This document shows, piece after piece, positions 3,839 to 9,936 of a DNA stretch of 16,302 nucleotides. Every line of letters starts with the position of its first letter. Within the stretch, counting starts at the first letter, position 1. Both the position numbers and the translations under genes were made by a program. The DNA is taken from IMG/VR virus record IMGVR_UViG_3300042517_000935, one strand, 5' to 3'. This stretch comes from a virus. The notes beneath the pieces were generated by a model that was not told the origin of the DNA, did not search any database, and saw only the letters and a program-made list of their open reading frames with translations.

Positions 3839-4264
3839 ATGAAAAAGAATTCACCCGTTTACGCATATGTTTTGATGAGAAATGATCTGGCCAGCCTGGG
3901 CGCAGGCAAGGCAGCAGCACATGCTCATCATGCAGGAACAAGAATGACCTACCATGTACGCAAGCATGGCACCAGGGCACAAAAAGATGTGCTCAACACC
4001 TGGGAACAGGAATGTGAGGGTGTGGGCACCACCATCGTGTTGAGTTGCGATGAAGAAACCATGAAGTGGTGTGTGGCAGAAATTGAAAAACTGCGAGATC
4101 AGGGTTGCAGTGCAGGTGTGTGGCGTGACCCCACCTATCCCAGCACCACAGAGCGTGGGTTCTGTTTGATGGCAGTGGATGTGTGTGCCTGGGTTCTGGG
4201 CAGCAAGGACGATCTTTCACCTATCCTCAGCGACCTGCCTCTCATGAACAATTGTGCATGGTAA
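3839..4264 (+). CDS. Peptidyl-tRNA hydrolase, PTH2 (archaeal/eukaryal type)-like, 141 aa.
   Basis: VYAYVLMRNDLASLGAGKAAAHAHHAG matches the PTH2 core (V)VLVVRNDL.MGKGK.AAQ..HAA. ...WEQE.EGVGTTIVLSCDEETM matches W...G..KVVLK..DEETL. The listed ORF begins at a TTG at 3797, so the start was moved to the ATG at 3839. Confidence 0.55.
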   Translation: MKKNSPVYAYVLMRNDLASLGAGKAAAHAHHAGTRMTYHVRKHGTRAQKDVLNTWEQECEGVGTTIVLSCDEETMKWCVAEIEKLRDQGCSAGVWRDPTYPSTTERGFCLMAVDVCAWVLGSKDDLSPILSDLPLMNNCAW

Positions 4265-4267
4265 CAC

Positions 4268-4477
4268 ATGCAAGTGACCTTGACTCTGTCAAAAGAACAA
4301 ATTCATAAATGGCAACAAGTGTGGACTCACAACGGATTTAGAGACTGGAATGATGCTGGTAGTTGGCTCTGGTGTAATTACCGAGCCAATGCCTATCGTG
4401 ATCGTGGAGGCATGCTGTTTGTTTTTGAAACGCAAGAAGAACAAACGTCATTTTTGCTCTCCTGGCTGTCTGACTAA
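4268..4477 (+). CDS. Hypothetical small protein (69 aa), possibly translationally coupled to the PTH2-like gene.
   Basis: The ATG lies 4 nt after the upstream stop. There is no SD and no recognisable family. Confidence 0.4.
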   Translation: MQVTLTLSKEQIHKWQQVWTHNGFRDWNDAGSWLWCNYRANAYRDRGGMLFVFETQEEQTSFLLSWLSD

Positions 4478-4706
4478 TAGGCCTATTCCACATGATATGG
4501 CGTGAATACAGAGATATATGGAAAAACCAAACTCTCTACATAGTAAGTCTATCATCAGAAGAATGGCCCAGTGCAACCTTGCATGAAATAGTGCATGGTC
4601 TCTGCTTCCAGAGACCCGCCGAATTACCGCTATCTTACAGCATCATAACTTGTGAACTGTTTGTTATTCACCAGCTATTATTAGCATGGGCATCGCACAT
4701 TGTCAA

Positions 4707-6776: not shown

Positions 6777-6803
6777 ATTCCCAAGTAGTATTGGATCTGC
6801 TTG

Positions 6804-9293
6804 TTAGCGGATACCCAACTGTGCAACATTCCTCAGCATGCCTTCCAGCGGAGTGCCAGTGAGCAGCTTGTTGAGTGTGCCACTGAGGCTTTCGCCCTGC
6901 ACAATGCTGAGTGGTGCCAGGTGCTGCGCAATGGCTTCCAGCTGACCAGTCTGTGCCATGGCAGTGAGTGCTTCCACCAGCTTGCCCTGGATGGCTTCCA
7001 TGCGAATCTTCTGAGCTTCTGCAAGGCCATGTTCCAGACCCACTTCACGCTGAGCTTCCTGATCCTTGATGGTTTGCCCCAGTTTGAGATCCTGTTCTTC
7101 GATCAGGCGGTGGATGTCAGCCACAGCCTGGTCTACCTGTGCAGCAGCATGTTCGTTCTGCTTGCGGGCTTGAACAATCTCACCCTCATTAGCCACAGAA
7201 GTTTTCATGTTCTGGTGCTTTTGGTTGATCTCCTGGCTTTGCAGTTCCAGGATGCACAACTGTGTGGTGCTCTTGGCTTCAGCTTCAACTTGCTTGGCCT
7301 TTTCCATGCCTGACACAATCTCCAGCCTGTGTGTGGCCCTGGCCAGCTCGATCCTGTCCTGCAGGGTCTCCTGCCTGCTGTTGCTCAGCATGCTGTCGAT
7401 GTTGCGATCCAGCACTGTGACACTGATTACTTCCAGGTCATACACTGTCATGCCGTTTTCCACAAAGTTCTTGAGTGGGCGGCTGCCAGTTTCTGGTTTC
7501 TTGCCCAGCACACAATCTCGGAGAATGTTGGCAGCATCTGTGTAAAAATCACCCACACTGATGTTGCGAACTTCATTGCCGATCAGGCTGCGCAGGTGAT
7601 CCACCATGTATTGTACATAGTTGTCAATGCTGAACCAATTGTCCTTGCGGCTCTCATCAAAACGTACCAGGTACTTGACCTGCACTCGCACATTCACCAG
7701 GTCATGTGTGCGAAGATCAATCACATCGCTAACAGGATTGCTGATATACCTCAGGTAGGGCGTGAGCAGGCAGTTGGCATCGCTCTTGGGCGTGCCTGTG
7801 CTGAGGCTCAGCTTTTCCAGGTATTCATCATATGCCAGGAGCACGCTCTGAGGACCCACCACAGTGCGACGATCCCCCTGGCTGTTGACGATCTGCACAG
7901 CATAGCCACTCCACACGTTGATCATCACAGCACCATCAAACTTGGTGTCCAGGGTGATGGTGCGTGGTGGCTGGTAGGTGGTGCCACGATCCAGAGCATC
8001 AGCAAAGGCATTGTCTGTGGCTGTCATGCGACGGCTCACAGGAGCAGCAGCAGCCACAGCATAGCTGGCATCCTGTACCACACTGGCGCCACCGCCCACA
8101 CTTTCTCGGCTGTTGCGCAGCATGTCGTTGACTTCCCTAACCCGGCGATTGCCTGGGAAGTAAAGATCACATTCGCTGGTGCTGAGCACACGACGCACTA
8201 CAACTTCCTGGATGGGATTGGGCAGGAACATGGCAGGGCCAGTCACCAGCTTGATCTCACCAGTGCTGCGGTTTAGCACATAGCGTCCTTCACCGCTGGG
8301 AATGGCCACGCTGTAGGTTTTCTCCTGATTGCCATACTTGATGATGGCATGTTCTTCACGAGGATAGTAGATGGGCATGTCCTTGCCTGTGATGAACATT
8401 TCATCACCAGCAACGTGTGACCCAGTTTCATCCACATAATCTGCAATCACCTTGATGTGAATACCATTGGTGGGTTGCAGTTCATATGCACGGAATTTGC
8501 GCTGCACACGGCCCTGAGCATCCTCCTTGAGGAAGAATTCCTGAGTGGGGCTGGGAAACACCACTGCTGGTCCACGCACATATTCCTTGTTGCCGCCCTC
8601 ATCCAGGAGCACAGCATATTCCAGGCGCTCTAGTGTGACAGCATCACGCACATAGCGATCATTTGCATCCTTGACCACTTCCACACCTGTGGGTGGAATA
8701 TAGAAGCTGATCTCTGTGCCCTTGATGATGATCATCTGGCCAGTTGTGAGATCATCTTTCTTGATGCCCAGGAAATTGTGATCTTCACTGGAAGATCCGC
8801 CTGTGACACTCTTGACCACACTCTTGTCCCAGTTTTCCTTGGCAGCTTCATCATCCACAATGCTCACAAGCAGATACTGGTTGCTACGCAGCTGATGACC
8901 CTTGATCACCGTTGCCACCTGGCCAGGCCACAGTGGATAACTCCAGGGACCAGGATGGTTTTCAGTCTGACCAATCAACAGTGCATCAATGGGCATGGCC
9001 TCACTTTTGCCAGGTTCAGGCTGGCGGCCATTCTTGGCTGGATTTTCCAGCACCACATAGTAACCCTTGCTGGCCATCACGTTGCTCTGTGTGGCACTCT
9101 GCTGGGTATTGGCTTCGTCAAATCTCTTGGTTCGGCTGTTGTAGGTAACCAGCTGATCAGTGTTGCTGAGGCTGCTCTTGTAGGGACCGCAATAGACGCT
9201 GATGGGACCTTTGGTTTGGTCTAGCACATAAGCGTAGACACCGGGAGGAAGCACCAGTTCCTTTTCTCGGCTTTTGCTATAATCGTCTGCCAT
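6804..9293 (-). CDS. Major vault protein (MVP) homolog, 829 aa.
   Basis: N-terminus MADDYSKSREKELVLPPGVYAYVLDQTKGPISVYCGPYK matches the MVP repeat-1 signature (F)[29 protein letters not shown]. A later region matches the shoulder domain: RTVVGPQ...LSLSTGTPK...HDLVNVRVQVKYLVRFDE...WFSIDNYVQYMVDHLRSLIGNEVRNISVGDFYTDAANILRD vs RVVFGPE...LSLSAGRPK...ADHARLQLQLAYNWHFEV...[40 protein letters not shown]. The C-terminus is a Glu/Gln/Ala-rich coiled-coil cap-helix. SD AAGGAG lies 11 nt upstream of the ATG at 9293, which was chosen over the longer listed ORF. Confidence 0.8.
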   Translation of the reverse strand: MADDYSKSREKELVLPPGVYAYVLDQTKGPISVYCGPYKSSLSNTDQLVTYNSRTKRFDEANTQQSATQSNVMASKGYYVVLENPAKNGRQPEPGKSEAMPIDALLIGQTENHPGPWSYPLWPGQVATVIKGHQLRSNQYLLVSIVDDEAAKENWDKSVVKSVTGGSSSEDHNFLGIKKDDLTTGQMIIIKGTEISFYIPPTGVEVVKDANDRYVRDAVTLERLEYAVLLDEGGNKEYVRGPAVVFPSPTQEFFLKEDAQGRVQRKFRAYELQPTNGIHIKVIADYVDETGSHVAGDEMFITGKDMPIYYPREEHAIIKYGNQEKTYSVAIPSGEGRYVLNRSTGEIKLVTGPAMFLPNPIQEVVVRRVLSTSECDLYFPGNRRVREVNDMLRNSRESVGGGASVVQDASYAVAAAAPVSRRMTATDNAFADALDRGTTYQPPRTITLDTKFDGAVMINVWSGYAVQIVNSQGDRRTVVGPQSVLLAYDEYLEKLSLSTGTPKSDANCLLTPYLRYISNPVSDVIDLRTHDLVNVRVQVKYLVRFDESRKDNWFSIDNYVQYMVDHLRSLIGNEVRNISVGDFYTDAANILRDCVLGKKPETGSRPLKNFVENGMTVYDLEVISVTVLDRNIDSMLSNSRQETLQDRIELARATHRLEIVSGMEKAKQVEAEAKSTTQLCILELQSQEINQKHQNMKTSVANEGEIVQARKQNEHAAAQVDQAVADIHRLIEEQDLKLGQTIKDQEAQREVGLEHGLAEAQKIRMEAIQGKLVEALTAMAQTGQLEAIAQHLAPLSIVQGESLSGTLNKLLTGTPLEGMLRNVAQLGIR

Positions 9294-9333
9294 GTTGGTT
9301 GGCTCCTTGTTGGATTGGAATAATGTGAATTTA

Positions 9334-9936
9334 CTATGTGTTGGACATTGCGTCAACAACAATCCGCTTGACAACCTTGGCCAAACCAGGATTTACAATC
9401 AGGGCATGTGGCATGATGTTGTGACGGATATGGTTGCGCATGAACCTGGTGTCCATGTTGCTGGGATCACCCCACCAAGGCACCTGATTCTTCTCACACC
9501 AACTCTGCAACTGACTCTTGGTGGTTGTGAGAAAGGGTCTCACAATATTACCATTTTGATAGGCAATGGTGTGATGTTTGCCATGCAGGCAATTGAACAA
9601 GTAGGTTTCCATGCAGTCATCCAGGTGATGAGCTGTGACCACAGTGCCTGGCAACTGGTGGAACCAGGAAATTCTCTGGTTGCGCCAAAATTCTTCCTGG
9701 CTTTCATGCTTGGGTTTGTTGGCTTCCAGCTTGCCCAGCAACAAGGGAATATCCCGCCTGGCACAATAGGCTGTGAGATTTTGTTCACACATGTGCCCAT
9801 AGAAAGTTTGATGATTGAAGTAGACAACTGTGACATCATGGCGCCTCTTGAGGAAATCCAAGGCTGCCATACTGTCTACGCCACCAGAACATGCCACATA
9901 CAACCTTGGCGGCAGTGGTGCAACAATTTTGATCAT
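9334..9936 (-). CDS. tilS: tRNA(Ile)-lysidine synthetase (TilS) N-terminal PP-loop catalytic domain-like protein, 200 aa.
   Basis: PP-loop ACSGGVDSMAAL. VVTAHHLDDCMETYLFNCLHGK matches the TilS motif LVTAQHLDDQCETFLL.L.RG. IVRPFL...GDPSNMDTRFMRNHIRHNIMP matches LIRPLL...EDESN.D..Y.RNFLR..VVP. It lacks the C-terminal tRNA-binding domains of full-length TilS. Confidence 0.75.
   Translation of the reverse strand: MIKIVAPLPPRLYVACSGGVDSMAALDFLKRRHDVTVVYFNHQTFYGHMCEQNLTAYCARRDIPLLLGKLEANKPKHESQEEFWRNQRISWFHQLPGTVVTAHHLDDCMETYLFNCLHGKHHTIAYQNGNIVRPFLTTTKSQLQSWCEKNQVPWWGDPSNMDTRFMRNHIRHNIMPHALIVNPGLAKVVKRIVVDAMSNT

What the first reader, a model, noticed from the sequence alone, without database searches (positions are those of the whole stretch)
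3839..9936. Translation-oriented accessory module: archaeal/eukaryal-type PTH2 plus TilS-like lysidine synthetase next to a tRNA island
PTH2 is the archaeal/eukaryal peptidyl-tRNA hydrolase family. Bacteria normally use Pth1, so a PTH2 in a phage of a bacterium is unusual. It may rescue ribosomes stalled on phage messages or counter host toxins that produce peptidyl-tRNA. A TilS-like catalytic domain without the C-terminal tRNA-binding domains suggests the phage modifies a CAU-anticodon tRNA (its own tRNA-Ile2 would lie outside this window) to read AUA. Together with six or more tRNA genes this is a translation-takeover toolkit.
Basis: partly seen in the sequence, partly recalled or inferred. 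Interest (0 to 1): 0.5.

Follow-up and report, generated by a model that had tools for sequence, protein, structure and literature searches.

The report
Phage PTH2 hydrolase and minimal TilS
An uncultured jumbo-type phage carries a real archaeal/eukaryal-type peptidyl-tRNA hydrolase and a stripped-down lysidine synthetase, both already known from large phages, as two separate genes rather than one module, and the claimed tRNA island is not in this window.

Summary
Both genes exist at the stated coordinates. The product of 3839-4264 (+) passes the Pfam PTH2 threshold. Its model (pLDDT 91) matches only Pth2/Bit1 structures, and the catalytic Lys and Asp are kept. The product of 9334-9936 (-) is a 200-aa TilS catalytic domain. 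It scores above the NCBIfam TilS_N cut-off, TilS is its best fold match, and QueC, TtcA and LarE score far lower. It has no C-terminal tRNA-binding domain.

The "module" reading fails. The genes lie on opposite strands with separate promoter-like sites. Between them sit a homing endonuclease, a GNAT/MCD-like gene and an 829-aa major-vault-protein homologue. The window holds two tRNA genes (Gln, Leu), not six, and they are 6 kb from TilS. No tRNA(CAU) is present.

Both proteins are already described in jumbo phages (Iyer 2021; MIJ3/PA5oct 2019).

New here: the roughly 200-aa TilS form is a large phage-specific clade. In 7 of 33 clusters a tRNA(CAU) lies 19-83 bp downstream of the gene, which supports lysidine synthesis on a phage tRNA. 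In this phage that slot holds the vault-protein gene instead, yet TilS is still under purifying selection. Verdict: a new member of known kinds, of modest interest.

The parts
3804..3831 (+). Sigma-70-like promoter (TTGACA, 16 nt, TG-TATTAT) ending 7 nt before the PTH2 ATG. It faces a divergent promoter-like site at 3759-3732 (-) for the 94-aa gene.
   Evidence: Consensus scan, 11 of 12 matches; sequence read. This is a pattern match only, not proof of function.
3839..4264 (+). Divergent PTH2-fold peptidyl-tRNA hydrolase, 141 aa, of a phage-specific subfamily (phrog_1866).
   Evidence: Pfam PF01981 29.6 bits against GA 23. phrog_1866 at 1.2e-15. AF2 model pLDDT 91.3. Foldseek top 13 PDB hits are all Pth2/Bit1, target-normalised TM 0.68-0.84. 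Lys24 aligns to S. solfataricus Pth2 Lys18. Invariant Asp97 aligns to the DAG aspartate of Bit1. The ATG start is supported by 27 homologues. dN/dS is 0.07 against L014, but dS is saturated.
4268..4477 (+). 69-aa ORF starting 4 nt after the PTH2 stop, probably co-transcribed; function unknown.
   Evidence: ORF list. Conserved in relatives L014, L019 and L033. No Pfam hit.
4707..5147 (-). 146-aa protein resembling the GNAT-fold C-terminal domain of malonyl-CoA decarboxylase. It is a conserved backbone gene of the clade.
   Evidence: PF05292 27.1 bits against GA 23.2. Weak PDB match to 4ksa. 52-58% identical in L012, L014, L019 and L033.
5911..6483 (+). HNH homing endonuclease, a mobile insert and paralogue of the gene at 13437-14183.
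   Evidence: phrog_655 at 1.2e-42; Pfam HNH. Presence and position vary between strains.
6751..6776 (-). Strong intrinsic-terminator-like hairpin (11 pairs, 8 G-C, followed by a T run) just after the MVP stop codon. It marks the end of the TilS-MVP transcription unit.
6804..9293 (-). 829-aa major-vault-protein (MVP) homologue starting 40 nt downstream of TilS on the same strand. It occupies the slot that holds tRNA(CAU) in relatives.
   Evidence: PF11978 MVP_shoulder 69.3 bits and PF17795 Vault_3 30.6 bits. Collinear with rat MVP, residues 331-763 against 340-787. GC 0.52, 0 of 45 Ile codons are AUA, CAG 39 against CAA 8, unlike its neighbours. Also adjacent to TilS in L101.
9334..9936 (-). 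Minimal TilS: the 200-aa catalytic N-terminal PP-loop domain of tRNA(Ile)-lysidine synthetase, with neither CTD1 nor CTD2.
   Evidence: TIGR02432 122.5 bits against cut-off 93.6. PDB TilS only, A. aeolicus residues 26-223 of 317. AF2 pLDDT 96. Foldseek top 5 are all TilS, query-normalised TM 0.78-0.87. All 35 family-invariant residues are present, including SGGVDS, HHLDD..E, RP, D.SN and RN.IRH. dN/dS 0.23 at dS 0.81 against L101.
9940..10086 (-). 48-aa ORF with a signal-peptide-like N-terminus. Its stop codon lies 3 nt before the TilS ATG, so the two may be translationally coupled.
   Evidence: Sequence read. Called as a gene in all same-phage contigs.
10168..10899 (-). 243-aa protein of unknown function between HSS and TilS.
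   Evidence: No hit in Pfam, PHROGs, NCBIfam, PADLOC or PDB. Not related to the R2K ATP-grasp gene that occupies this slot in L012.
11172..12575 (-). Bacterial-type homospermidine synthase, upstream of TilS throughout this phage clade.
   Evidence: PDB 2PH5 at E 5e-138, full length; Pfam Sacchrp_dh N and C domains. Synteny in L012, L019, L033, L099 and L101.
13207..13293 (-). Non-canonical tRNA-like RNA. It has an intact acceptor stem with an encoded CCA end and a T-arm, and a UCU anticodon loop. The D-arm is reduced to about 4 nt and a 28-nt insert sits in the variable region. A promoter-like site at 13337-13310 precedes it.
   Evidence: Rfam tRNA 26.3 bits, below the gathering score of 29; missed by ARAGORN. 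96.7% identical in L014/L015, whose TilS is only 52% identical.
15985..16059 (-). tRNA-Gln(UUG).
   Evidence: ARAGORN; Rfam 66.5 bits.
16072..16154 (-). tRNA-Leu(CAA).
   Evidence: ARAGORN; Rfam 58.1 bits.

Best explanation
The interval holds two independent translation-support genes of an uncultured jumbo-type phage. They sit in a variable cargo region and do not form an operon.

(1) The 141-aa protein is a divergent PTH2-fold esterase. It keeps the catalytic Lys and Asp, so it most likely hydrolyses peptidyl-tRNA (or N-blocked aminoacyl-tRNA) and returns tRNA to the pool during infection.

(2) The 200-aa protein is the catalytic domain of lysidine synthetase on its own. It most likely adenylates C34 of a CAU-anticodon tRNA-Ile2 and adds lysine, so that the tRNA is charged by IleRS and reads AUA. 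Having no appended domains, it would have to recognise its tRNA through the anticodon arm alone. In related phages the substrate is probably the tRNA(CAU) gene encoded right behind the enzyme gene, which would make a portable enzyme-substrate pair independent of the host TilS's acceptor-stem rules. In this phage that tRNA slot is occupied by a vault-protein homologue, so the substrate is either a tRNA(CAU) elsewhere in the genome or the host's tRNA-Ile2.

Shown: family, fold, conserved catalytic motifs, domain architecture, gene order, linkage to tRNA(CAU) in relatives, and purifying selection. Inferred: both enzyme activities, the identity of the substrate tRNA, and the benefit to the phage.
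For: PTH2: Pfam score above the gathering threshold. The high-confidence model matches only Pth2/Bit1 structures. Lys24 and Asp97 align to the catalytic Lys and Asp and are nearly invariant and invariant, respectively, in 28 homologues.

TilS identity: TIGR02432 above its cut-off. The sequence matches only TilS in the PDB, and TilS is the best fold match. All signature motifs are invariant. Rival PP-loop families score about 100 bits lower.

TilS architecture: 170 representatives of 50%-identity clusters reach E<=1e-30. Nearly all of the best 150 are 180-230 aa, and none carries a C-terminal extension after the TilS match. 489 relatives occur in IMG/VR. Cellular genomes give at best 28-34% identity.

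Substrate: a tRNA(CAU) lies 19-83 bp downstream on the same strand in 11 of 80 loci, which is 7 of 33 clusters at 90% identity. No other anticodon occurs within 150 bp on either side, and overall tRNA density is about 1 per 11 kb. In L071 the order is TilS, CAU, Leu(UAA), Arg(UCU). PA5oct, which has this TilS, carries three CAU tRNAs. Two of them share a 15-nt anticodon arm with E. coli tRNA-Ile2.

Need and selection: AUA is used at 6.8 per 1000 codons in the window. dN/dS is 0.23 between the two lineages that lack the adjacent tRNA.

Separate units: opposite strands, PTH2's own promoter-like site, and a terminator after MVP.
Against: - No tRNA(CAU) was found in the window or in about 19 kb of flanking DNA from the same phage.
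- Every characterised TilS has at least one C-terminal domain, and deleting CTD2 strongly reduces activity of a type I enzyme (PMC11947777). Activity of an NTD-only protein is therefore unproven.
- The TilS-adjacent CAU tRNAs could not be rigorously assigned to Ile2 rather than elongator Met. Similarity to E. coli references favours Ile2 only slightly.
- The PTH2 match covers only profile positions 4-83 of 115 by HMM and is far below the NCBIfam equivalog cut-offs.
- AUA usage is not elevated (12.6% of Ile codons).
Confidence: 0.68

Rival explanations
1. PTH2, TilS, the tRNA genes and perhaps homospermidine synthase form one co-selected translation-takeover module that works as a unit.
For: Within this phage clade one backbone order recurs: tRNA-Leu(CAA)/Gln(UUG), HSS, TilS, tRNA(CAU), MCD-like, tRNA(CUA), g69, PTH2. 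All of these touch translation. Polyamines support ribosome function (PMC9992855). A relative also has a release-factor gene next to HSS.
Against: TilS and PTH2 are on opposite strands, 5 kb apart, each with its own promoter-like site, and a terminator follows the TilS-MVP unit. Unrelated and mobile genes lie between them. Among 50,697 deposited phage records, none appears in both the TilS and the PTH2 hit lists. Among 80 IMG/VR TilS loci, PTH2 lies within 10 kb only in the close relative L033; outside that set it is also seen in L014. L019-23 keep TilS and tRNA(CAU) but have no PTH2 hit in the 20-kb locus. The shared order therefore looks like inherited synteny in one lineage.
Confidence: 0.15
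2. The NTD-only TilS does something other than make lysidine on tRNA-Ile2. Without the discriminating domains it might also modify host elongator or initiator tRNA-Met(CAU), reprogramming or crippling host AUG decoding. Or it might attach a different amine, for example a polyamine made by the upstream homospermidine synthase.
For: The domains implicated in rejecting near-cognate substrates are missing, and how type II enzymes reject tRNA-Met is still unknown. TilS accepts 5-aminovaleramide in vitro at high concentration (PMC13602947). HSS lies upstream of TilS in six sub-lineages of the clade. This phage keeps TilS although the adjacent tRNA(CAU) is gone.
Against: The HSS link is confined to one clade and is absent from the other roughly 70 IMG/VR loci. 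All TilS catalytic motifs are conserved. The tight pairing with one elongator-type tRNA(CAU) gene in seven clusters points to a dedicated substrate. Removing CTD2 did not let a type I enzyme act on tRNA-Met.
Confidence: 0.09
3. The PTH2-fold protein is a counter-defence enzyme rather than a housekeeping recycler. It would reverse host toxins that block tRNAs, such as GNAT toxins that acetylate aminoacyl-tRNA, or clear peptidyl-tRNA fragments left after anticodon-nuclease attack.
For: Pth detoxifies tRNA acetylated by TacT-type toxins (PMC9241777, title and abstract only, listed). Iyer et al. place jumbo-phage PTH2 in the context of tRNA cleavage and ribosome rescue. The subfamily is divergent and phage-specific, falling below the equivalog cut-offs.
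Against: No defence or anti-defence family match. No linked tRNA repair genes (RtcB, Pnkp, ligase) in the window. The chemistry is the same as for the main explanation, so sequence cannot separate the two.
Confidence: 0.08

Closest known systems
TilS of Pseudomonas jumbo phages vB_PaeM_MIJ3 / PA5oct (gp263; QCG76301.1), reported 2019
   Same: About 200 aa with the catalytic domain only. 43% identical over 97% of the length. It belongs to the same phage-specific clade. The phage also carries CAU tRNAs.
   Different: In PA5oct the gene sits in a run of small early-type genes about 7 kb from the tRNA cluster. Here it lies between homospermidine synthase and a vault-protein homologue, with no CAU tRNA in reach. 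The MIJ3 paper did not note the missing C-terminal domains or any tRNA(CAU) linkage.
Cellular TilS: type II (Aquifex aeolicus, PDB 1WY5/2E89) and type I (E. coli MesJ 1NI5, Geobacillus 3A2K)
   Same: Same PP-loop fold, query-normalised TM 0.78-0.87. Same SGGxDS, HHxxD..E, RP, DxSN and RNxIR motifs.
   Different: Only 23-34% identical. It lacks CTD1 and CTD2, which contact the anticodon stem/elbow and the acceptor stem and contribute to activity and discrimination. Against the full-length equivalog model it scores 56 bits, with a cut-off of 606.
PTH2 of jumbo phages (Iyer et al. 2021, groups 2 and 3; annotated in Caulobacter, Brevundimonas and Erythrobacter phages)
   Same: An archaeo-eukaryotic-type Pth2 in a bacterial virus. 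35-42% identical to those phage proteins over more than 80% of the length. Same proposed role in rescuing stalled translation.
   Different: It belongs to a metagenome-only subgroup of 30 homologues, all from uncultured contigs. The C-terminal half is divergent: WRDPTYPSTT replaces the canonical DAGxT motif region.
Archaeal Pth2 / human PTRH2 (Bit1), PDB 1XTY, 1Q7S, 3ERJ
   Same: Same fold over about 130 aligned columns, and the same catalytic Lys and Asp positions.
   Different: 17-22% identity. About 25 residues longer. Well below the NCBIfam equivalog cut-offs, 20.6 against 126 and 19.2 against 82.
T4-type phage tRNA sets that include tRNA-Ile(CAU), Leu(UAA) and Arg(UCU) (own knowledge)
   Same: Relatives place CAU, Leu(UAA) and Arg(UCU) tRNAs together, readers of A-ending rare codons.
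   Different: To my knowledge T4 relies on the host TilS. This clade brings its own enzyme.

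Membership tests
TilS (tRNA(Ile)-lysidine synthetase) | PP-loop ATP-pyrophosphatase motif SGGxDS | tested here: met
   S17-G-G-V-D-S22 aligns to A. aeolicus S32-S37. S17, G19, D21 and S22 are invariant and G18 nearly invariant in 37 homologues.
TilS (tRNA(Ile)-lysidine synthetase) | TilS-specific catalytic-domain signature, scoring above the curated cut-off and above other PP-loop families | tested here: met
   TIGR02432 122.5 bits against cut-off 93.6. TtcA 18.1, LarE 15.5, QueC 21.9-23.4 bits. 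Motifs HHLDD..E, RP, D.SN and RN.IRH are conserved.
TilS (tRNA(Ile)-lysidine synthetase) | Fold closest to solved TilS N-terminal domains | tested here: met
   Model pLDDT 96. Foldseek ranks 1-5 are E. coli and A. aeolicus TilS at E about 6e-13, TtuA follows at 1e-9, and QueC is rank 43.
TilS (tRNA(Ile)-lysidine synthetase) | At least one appended C-terminal tRNA-binding domain (CTD1 in type II; CTD1 plus CTD2 in type I) | tested here: not met
   The protein ends at residue 200, equivalent to about residue 223 of the 317-aa A. aeolicus enzyme. The full-length model NF007942 gives 56 bits against a cut-off of 606. Nearly all close relatives are 180-230 aa. No neighbouring ORF resembles a CTD.
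TilS (tRNA(Ile)-lysidine synthetase) | A cognate tRNA-Ile2 with a CAU anticodon available as substrate | tested here: inconclusive
   None in the window or in about 19 kb of same-phage flanks. A tRNA(CAU) lies directly downstream of the gene in 7 of 33 related clusters. Ile2 versus Met identity is not resolved.
TilS (tRNA(Ile)-lysidine synthetase) | ATP- and lysine-dependent formation of lysidine at C34 | not testable with these tools
   Needs an enzyme assay or mass spectrometry.
PTH2 (archaeal/eukaryal peptidyl-tRNA hydrolase) | Pfam PF01981 match above the gathering score | tested here: met
   29.6 bits against 23. The match covers residues 10-99 and profile positions 4-83 of 115.
PTH2 (archaeal/eukaryal peptidyl-tRNA hydrolase) | Equivalog-level similarity to archaeal Pth2 (NCBIfam NF003314 / TIGR00283) | tested here: not met
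   20.6 bits against 126, and 19.2 bits against 82. It is a divergent subfamily, not an equivalog.
PTH2 (archaeal/eukaryal peptidyl-tRNA hydrolase) | PTH2 alpha/beta fold over the whole domain | tested here: met
   Model pLDDT 91.3. The 13 PDB hits at E<=1e-3 are all Pth2/Bit1, with 129-135 alignment columns and target-normalised TM 0.68-0.84.
PTH2 (archaeal/eukaryal peptidyl-tRNA hydrolase) | Catalytic Lys and Asp (S. solfataricus Lys18 and Asp86; the residue roles are recalled from the literature) | tested here: met
   Lys24 in GAGK aligns to GKGK Lys18. Invariant Asp97 aligns to the Asp of the Bit1 motif IQDAGRT.
PTH2 (archaeal/eukaryal peptidyl-tRNA hydrolase) | Hydrolysis of peptidyl-tRNA | not testable with these tools
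   Needs an assay or pth(ts) complementation.
   Two tRNAs plus one sub-threshold tRNA-like element in 16.3 kb. The nearest tRNA is 6 kb from TilS.
Operon-type functional module (PTH2 plus TilS) | Same strand, adjacency or co-transcription, and co-occurrence beyond close relatives | tested here: not met
   Opposite strands, 5 kb apart, separate promoter-like sites and a terminator. No deposited phage record has both. They co-occur only in L014, L033 and the same-phage contigs.
Major vault protein (gene inside the interval) | MVP repeat domains, shoulder domain and a long C-terminal helix, collinear with eukaryotic MVP | tested here: met
   PF17795 and PF11978 both above their gathering scores. 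Residues 331-763 align to rat MVP 340-787. Assembly into vault particles was not tested.

The most novel reading that the evidence does not exclude
The roughly 200-aa phage TilS would be a third architectural type of lysidine synthetase that needs no appended tRNA-binding domain. Freed from the domains that enforce specificity in cells, it would either act on further CAU tRNAs (host tRNA-Met or tRNA-fMet) or install a non-lysine amine at C34, such as a polyamine supplied by the conserved upstream homospermidine synthase. Either outcome would be a virus-specific anticodon modification or a form of decoding sabotage. This phage kept the enzyme after losing the adjacent tRNA(CAU), so it would be the natural test case.
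Probability: 0.07. Interest if true: 0.8.

Novelty: new member of a known kind. Interest (0 to 1): 0.33.

Why it matters
For this window alone, little changes. It adds one more uncultured large phage to the list of those carrying PTH2 and TilS, and it corrects the picture of a compact module beside a tRNA island.

The wider family analysis has more use. The phage TilS is always the bare catalytic domain. It forms a large clade distinct from cellular TilS, and in several lineages a tRNA(CAU) gene follows it directly. Recent work states that all TilS enzymes carry at least one extra domain and that it is still unknown how tRNA-Ile2 is told apart from tRNA-Met without acceptor-stem contacts. A natural minimal enzyme with its likely substrate encoded next door gives a small, clonable system for that question. 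It could also serve as an orthogonal AUA-decoding pair for codon reassignment work.

Tried and rejected
- Megablast of 3500-10500 against 50,697 phage records found nothing, so the phage is not a sequenced isolate.
- I tried to walk beyond the window to find a tRNA(CAU) in this phage. Same-phage contigs reach only about 9 kb to the right and about 10 kb to the left. Exact-pattern scans with the end of L004 found nothing in IMG/VR or in the JGI metagenome collection. A scan of species-representative genomes with a TilS 32-mer also found nothing, so there is no host hint.
- I looked for remnants of the relatives' tRNA(CAU), tRNA(CUA) and tRNA-Arg in the window and in same-phage loci. None turned up.
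- I tested whether the 243-aa gene upstream of TilS is the R2K ATP-grasp gene found in that slot in L012, or a detached TilS C-terminal domain. It shows no similarity to either.
- I tried to classify the CAU tRNAs as Ile2 or Met by global similarity to E. coli references and by the 29-41 base pair. Both separate the classes only weakly, so I do not rely on them. The E. coli Ile2 reference itself was verified.
- QueC, TtcA, LarE and PAPS-reductase-like identities for the PP-loop protein are rejected on score and on fold.
- Gene decay is rejected for both genes on the basis of intact motifs and dN/dS below 0.25.
- A recent transfer of the MVP gene from the host looked possible from its composition. 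However, its nearest homologues (56-71% identical) sit on 370-405 kb contigs typical of huge phages, and named bacterial MAG proteins are only 43-46% identical. The origin remains open.
It was rerun without that row.

Full report
LAYOUT. The 16.3-kb window is phage DNA. It carries a repeat-rich fibre protein with an endosialidase-chaperone domain (30-2363) and two phrog_655 HNH homing endonucleases. All of its closest relatives are viral or metagenomic contigs. It has no near-identical match among 50,697 deposited phage records. Identical proteins do occur on many short metagenome contigs of at most 27 kb. The nearest relatives that share its gene order sit on IMG/VR contigs of up to 310 kb (L023), so the source is most likely an uncultured jumbo phage.

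Genes in and around the finding's interval, in order:
- g94 (3407-3691, -)
- PTH2-like (3839-4264, +) and g69 (4268-4477, +)
- a GNAT/MCD-like gene (4707-5147, -)
- an HNH endonuclease (5911-6483, +)
- an 829-aa major-vault-protein homologue (6804-9293, -)
- TilS-like (9334-9936, -)
- a 48-aa ORF (9940-10086, -)
- a 243-aa protein of unknown function (10168-10899, -)
- homospermidine synthase (11172-12575, -)

THE OBSERVATION. The tRNA claim does not. ARAGORN and Rfam each find two tRNA genes, Gln(UUG) and Leu(CAA), at 15985-16154 on the - strand. A permissive Rfam scan adds one sub-threshold tRNA-like element at 13207-13293. In another contig of the same phage, four further tRNAs lie beyond the right end of the window, spread over about 8.5 kb among protein genes (L004). 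This is a scattered set, not an island beside the enzymes, and none of these tRNAs has a CAU anticodon.

PTH2. The 141-aa product scores 29.6 bits on Pfam PF01981 (gathering score 23), over profile positions 4-83 of 115. It matches phrog_1866 at 1.2e-15. It is far below the NCBIfam Pth2 equivalog cut-offs. An AlphaFold model built on 28 homologues has pLDDT 91.3. All 13 PDB matches at E<=1e-3 are archaeal Pth2 or human Bit1, over about 130 columns with target-normalised TM 0.68-0.84. Lys24 in GAGK aligns to Lys18 of S. solfataricus Pth2. Invariant Asp97 aligns to the aspartate of the Bit1 DAG motif in a profile alignment that spans the whole domain. The ATG at 3839, rather than the upstream TTG, is the start used by the homologues. 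A near-consensus extended -10 promoter-like site ends 7 nt before it. The protein is therefore a divergent, phage-specific member of the PTH2 fold with its catalytic dyad intact. That is not new. Iyer et al. [quoted passage not shown] Caulobacter, Brevundimonas and Erythrobacter phages carry homologues 35-42% identical, some annotated as peptidyl-tRNA hydrolase.

TILS. The 200-aa product scores 122.5 bits on TIGR02432 (lysidine_TilS_N, cut-off 93.6). TtcA gives 18 bits, LarE 15.5 and QueC 22-23. In the PDB it matches only TilS by sequence. Its model (pLDDT 96) is closest to E. coli and A. aeolicus TilS, with E about 6e-13 and query-normalised TM 0.78-0.87. TtuA follows at 1e-9 and QueC is rank 43. 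The PP-loop SGGVDS and the TilS motifs HHLDD..E, RP, D.SN and RN.IRH are all present and are invariant across 37 homologues. The alignment to the 317-aa A. aeolicus enzyme ends at residue 223, the boundary of the catalytic domain, and the full-length TilS model scores 56 bits against a cut-off of 606. No neighbouring ORF resembles a detached C-terminal domain.

THE TILS FAMILY. This short form is the rule in its clade.
- All of the best 120 database homologues are about 180-256 aa.
- In an exhaustive search of 1.84 billion cluster representatives, 170 reach E<=1e-30. Nearly all of the best 150 are 180-230 aa, and none carries a C-terminal extension after the TilS match.
- IMG/VR holds 489 relatives.
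- One genome per bacterial or archaeal species yields at best 28-34% identity, which is ordinary cellular TilS.
- Family members, including the PA5oct protein, are 43% or more identical to the window protein.

[quoted passage not shown] A phage TilS was first reported for MIJ3/PA5oct in 2019, without comment on its architecture (PMC6892783). A longer 349-aa version is annotated in Ralstonia phage RsoM2USA.

LINK TO tRNA(CAU). I scanned the 80 best IMG/VR loci, each with up to 10 kb on either side. CAU is the commonest anticodon (15 of 98 tRNAs). In 11 loci a tRNA(CAU) starts 19-83 bp after the TilS stop codon on the same strand. After clustering the enzymes at 90% identity, this holds for 7 of 33 clusters, or 6 of 22 at 70%. 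No tRNA of any other anticodon lies within 150 bp on either side, and tRNA density is about one per 11 kb. All adjacent CAU tRNAs are elongator type with a paired 1-72 position. In L071 the order is TilS, CAU, Leu(UAA), Arg(UCU), which are readers of three A-ending codons. PA5oct has three CAU tRNAs. One is initiator-like, with a C1 x A72 mismatch. The other two are each followed by Leu(UAA), and their 15-nt anticodon arm is identical to that of E. coli tRNA-Ile2. I checked that reference against E. coli genomes. I could not classify the adjacent tRNAs rigorously as Ile2 rather than Met, because similarity to the E. coli references leans only slightly towards Ile2.

THIS PHAGE IN PARTICULAR. 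Relatives whose TilS is 52-60% identical share a backbone: tRNA-Leu(CAA)/Gln(UUG), HSS, TilS, tRNA(CAU), MCD-like, tRNA(CUA), g69, PTH2 (present in L014 and L033; no hit in L012 or L019-23), g94, HTH, g153. In the window both tRNA slots are empty and no remnant is detectable. The slot after TilS holds the MVP homologue, which starts 40 nt downstream with a good ribosome-binding site. A strong terminator-like hairpin follows it at 6751-6776. A 76%-identical relative has the same TilS-MVP arrangement (L101). Between these two lineages TilS has dN/dS 0.23 at an unsaturated dS of 0.81, so the gene is maintained without the adjacent tRNA. AUA makes up 6.8 per 1000 codons and 12.6% of Ile codons in window genes, so the codon is used but not enriched.

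IS IT A MODULE? No. PTH2 and TilS are on opposite strands and 5 kb apart, with separate promoter-like sites. PTH2 shares a divergent promoter region with g94, while TilS belongs to a leftward unit that ends after MVP. Mobile and unrelated genes lie between them. No deposited phage record appears in both hit lists. Among TilS loci, PTH2 lies within 10 kb only in close relatives. The recurring neighbourhood of translation-related genes is real but confined to one lineage, so inherited synteny explains it at least as well as functional coupling does.

MECHANISM. The most likely reading, at about 0.68 confidence, has two parts. The TilS domain would adenylate C34 of a CAU tRNA and add lysine, turning a tRNA that would otherwise be charged with Met and read AUG into an Ile tRNA that reads AUA (established TilS chemistry). 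Cellular TilS enzymes read species-specific acceptor-stem pairs (E. coli 4:69 and 5:68; B. cenocepacia 3:70). A phage tRNA-Ile2 therefore risks going unmodified in a given host, and a phage enzyme that needs only the anticodon arm would remove that dependence. The PTH2 protein would release tRNA from peptidyl-tRNA that drops off or is stranded during infection. Family, fold, motifs, architecture, linkage and selection are shown. Activities, substrate and benefit are inferred.

RIVALS. Three remain: the integrated module (0.15), an altered substrate or amine for the minimal TilS (0.09), and a counter-defence role for PTH2 (0.08). On the amine idea, TilS accepts 5-aminovaleramide in vitro, and HSS lies upstream of TilS in six sub-lineages. 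However, that link is absent from the other roughly 70 loci.

VERDICT. The two family assignments are correct. The "module next to a tRNA island" is not. Both proteins are new members of kinds already described in jumbo phages. The one point with wider value is at family level: a large, phage-specific, catalytic-domain-only TilS clade that is repeatedly paired with a tRNA(CAU) gene.

Noticed in passing
window 6804-9293 (-): An 829-aa major-vault-protein homologue (shoulder domain and vault repeat, collinear with rat MVP) lies directly downstream of TilS. Its composition differs from the neighbouring genes: GC 0.52, no AUA codons, CAG-rich. Homologues are abundant: more than 6,300 database hits, with the closest (56-71% identical) on 370-405 kb contigs, and 37% identity in the 735-kb and 462-kb huge phages LR756501/3 and LR756500. 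The only report of viral MVPs I found covers two gut phages (bioRxiv 2023.11.10.566534).
   Followed up: partly
window 13207-13293 (-); also L001, L003, L005, L014:6990-7080, L015: A non-canonical tRNA-like RNA. It has a perfect acceptor stem with an encoded CCA end, a good T-arm and a UCU anticodon loop. Almost no D-arm remains and there is a 28-nt insert in the variable region. It scores below the Rfam threshold (26.3 against 29) and ARAGORN misses it. It is 96.7% identical in relatives whose proteins are only about 52-70% identical, and a near-consensus promoter-like site precedes it. In strain L002 a canonical tRNA-Arg(UCU) of unrelated sequence occupies the same region.
   Followed up: partly
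L012:15935-16009, L014:14384-14459, L019:12466-12539, L033:11882-11957: Relatives carry an amber-suppressor-type tRNA(CUA) just after the MCD-like gene. This could mean TAG recoding in part of this clade. The window lacks this tRNA and uses TAG as the stop codon of TilS, g153, the MCD-like gene and g207.
   Followed up: partly
L101:4141-4845: In the relative whose TilS is 76% identical, a release-factor gene (PCRF and RF-1 domains) lies just upstream of homospermidine synthase. It is called as two ORFs of 35 and 184 aa, so it is either split or read through a programmed frameshift or recoded stop.
   Followed up: no
window 11172-12575 (-): A full-length bacterial-type homospermidine synthase (E 5e-138 to Legionella HSS 2PH5). 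It stays upstream of TilS in six sub-lineages of the clade, with a variable gene in between: the 243-aa unknown here, an R2K ATP-grasp gene in L012, and nothing in L033. Phage HSS genes are already known (PMC9992855).
   Followed up: partly
window 5911-6483 (+) and 13437-14183 (+); compare L001-L010: Two paralogous phrog_655 HNH homing endonucleases. Gene content around them differs between otherwise identical contigs of the same phage. This probably explains why assemblies of this phage break into contigs of at most 27 kb.
   Followed up: no
window 3804-3841 (+): The extended -10 promoter-like site ends 7 nt before the PTH2 ATG and no Shine-Dalgarno sequence sits at normal spacing. The PTH2 mRNA may therefore be leaderless or nearly so.
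   Followed up: no
window 4707-5147 (-): A small GNAT-fold protein, resembling the C-terminal domain of malonyl-CoA decarboxylase, is a conserved backbone gene. In relatives it is flanked by tRNA(CAU) and tRNA(CUA). An acetyltransferase acting on tRNA or aminoacyl-tRNA is conceivable but was not tested.
   Followed up: no
L004:8454-8547: ARAGORN calls a 94-nt 'tRNA-Tyr' with the unusual anticodon AUA in the same phage, just outside the window. It may be a mis-parsed class II tRNA.
   Followed up: no
L018:10887-11093 (PA5oct 268886-269092): PA5oct annotates a 68-aa 'saccharopine dehydrogenase-like oxidoreductase' fragment inside its tRNA cluster, about 8 kb from its TilS. It may be a remnant of the HSS-TilS neighbourhood seen here. 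A tblastn search with the window HSS did not detect it.
   Followed up: no
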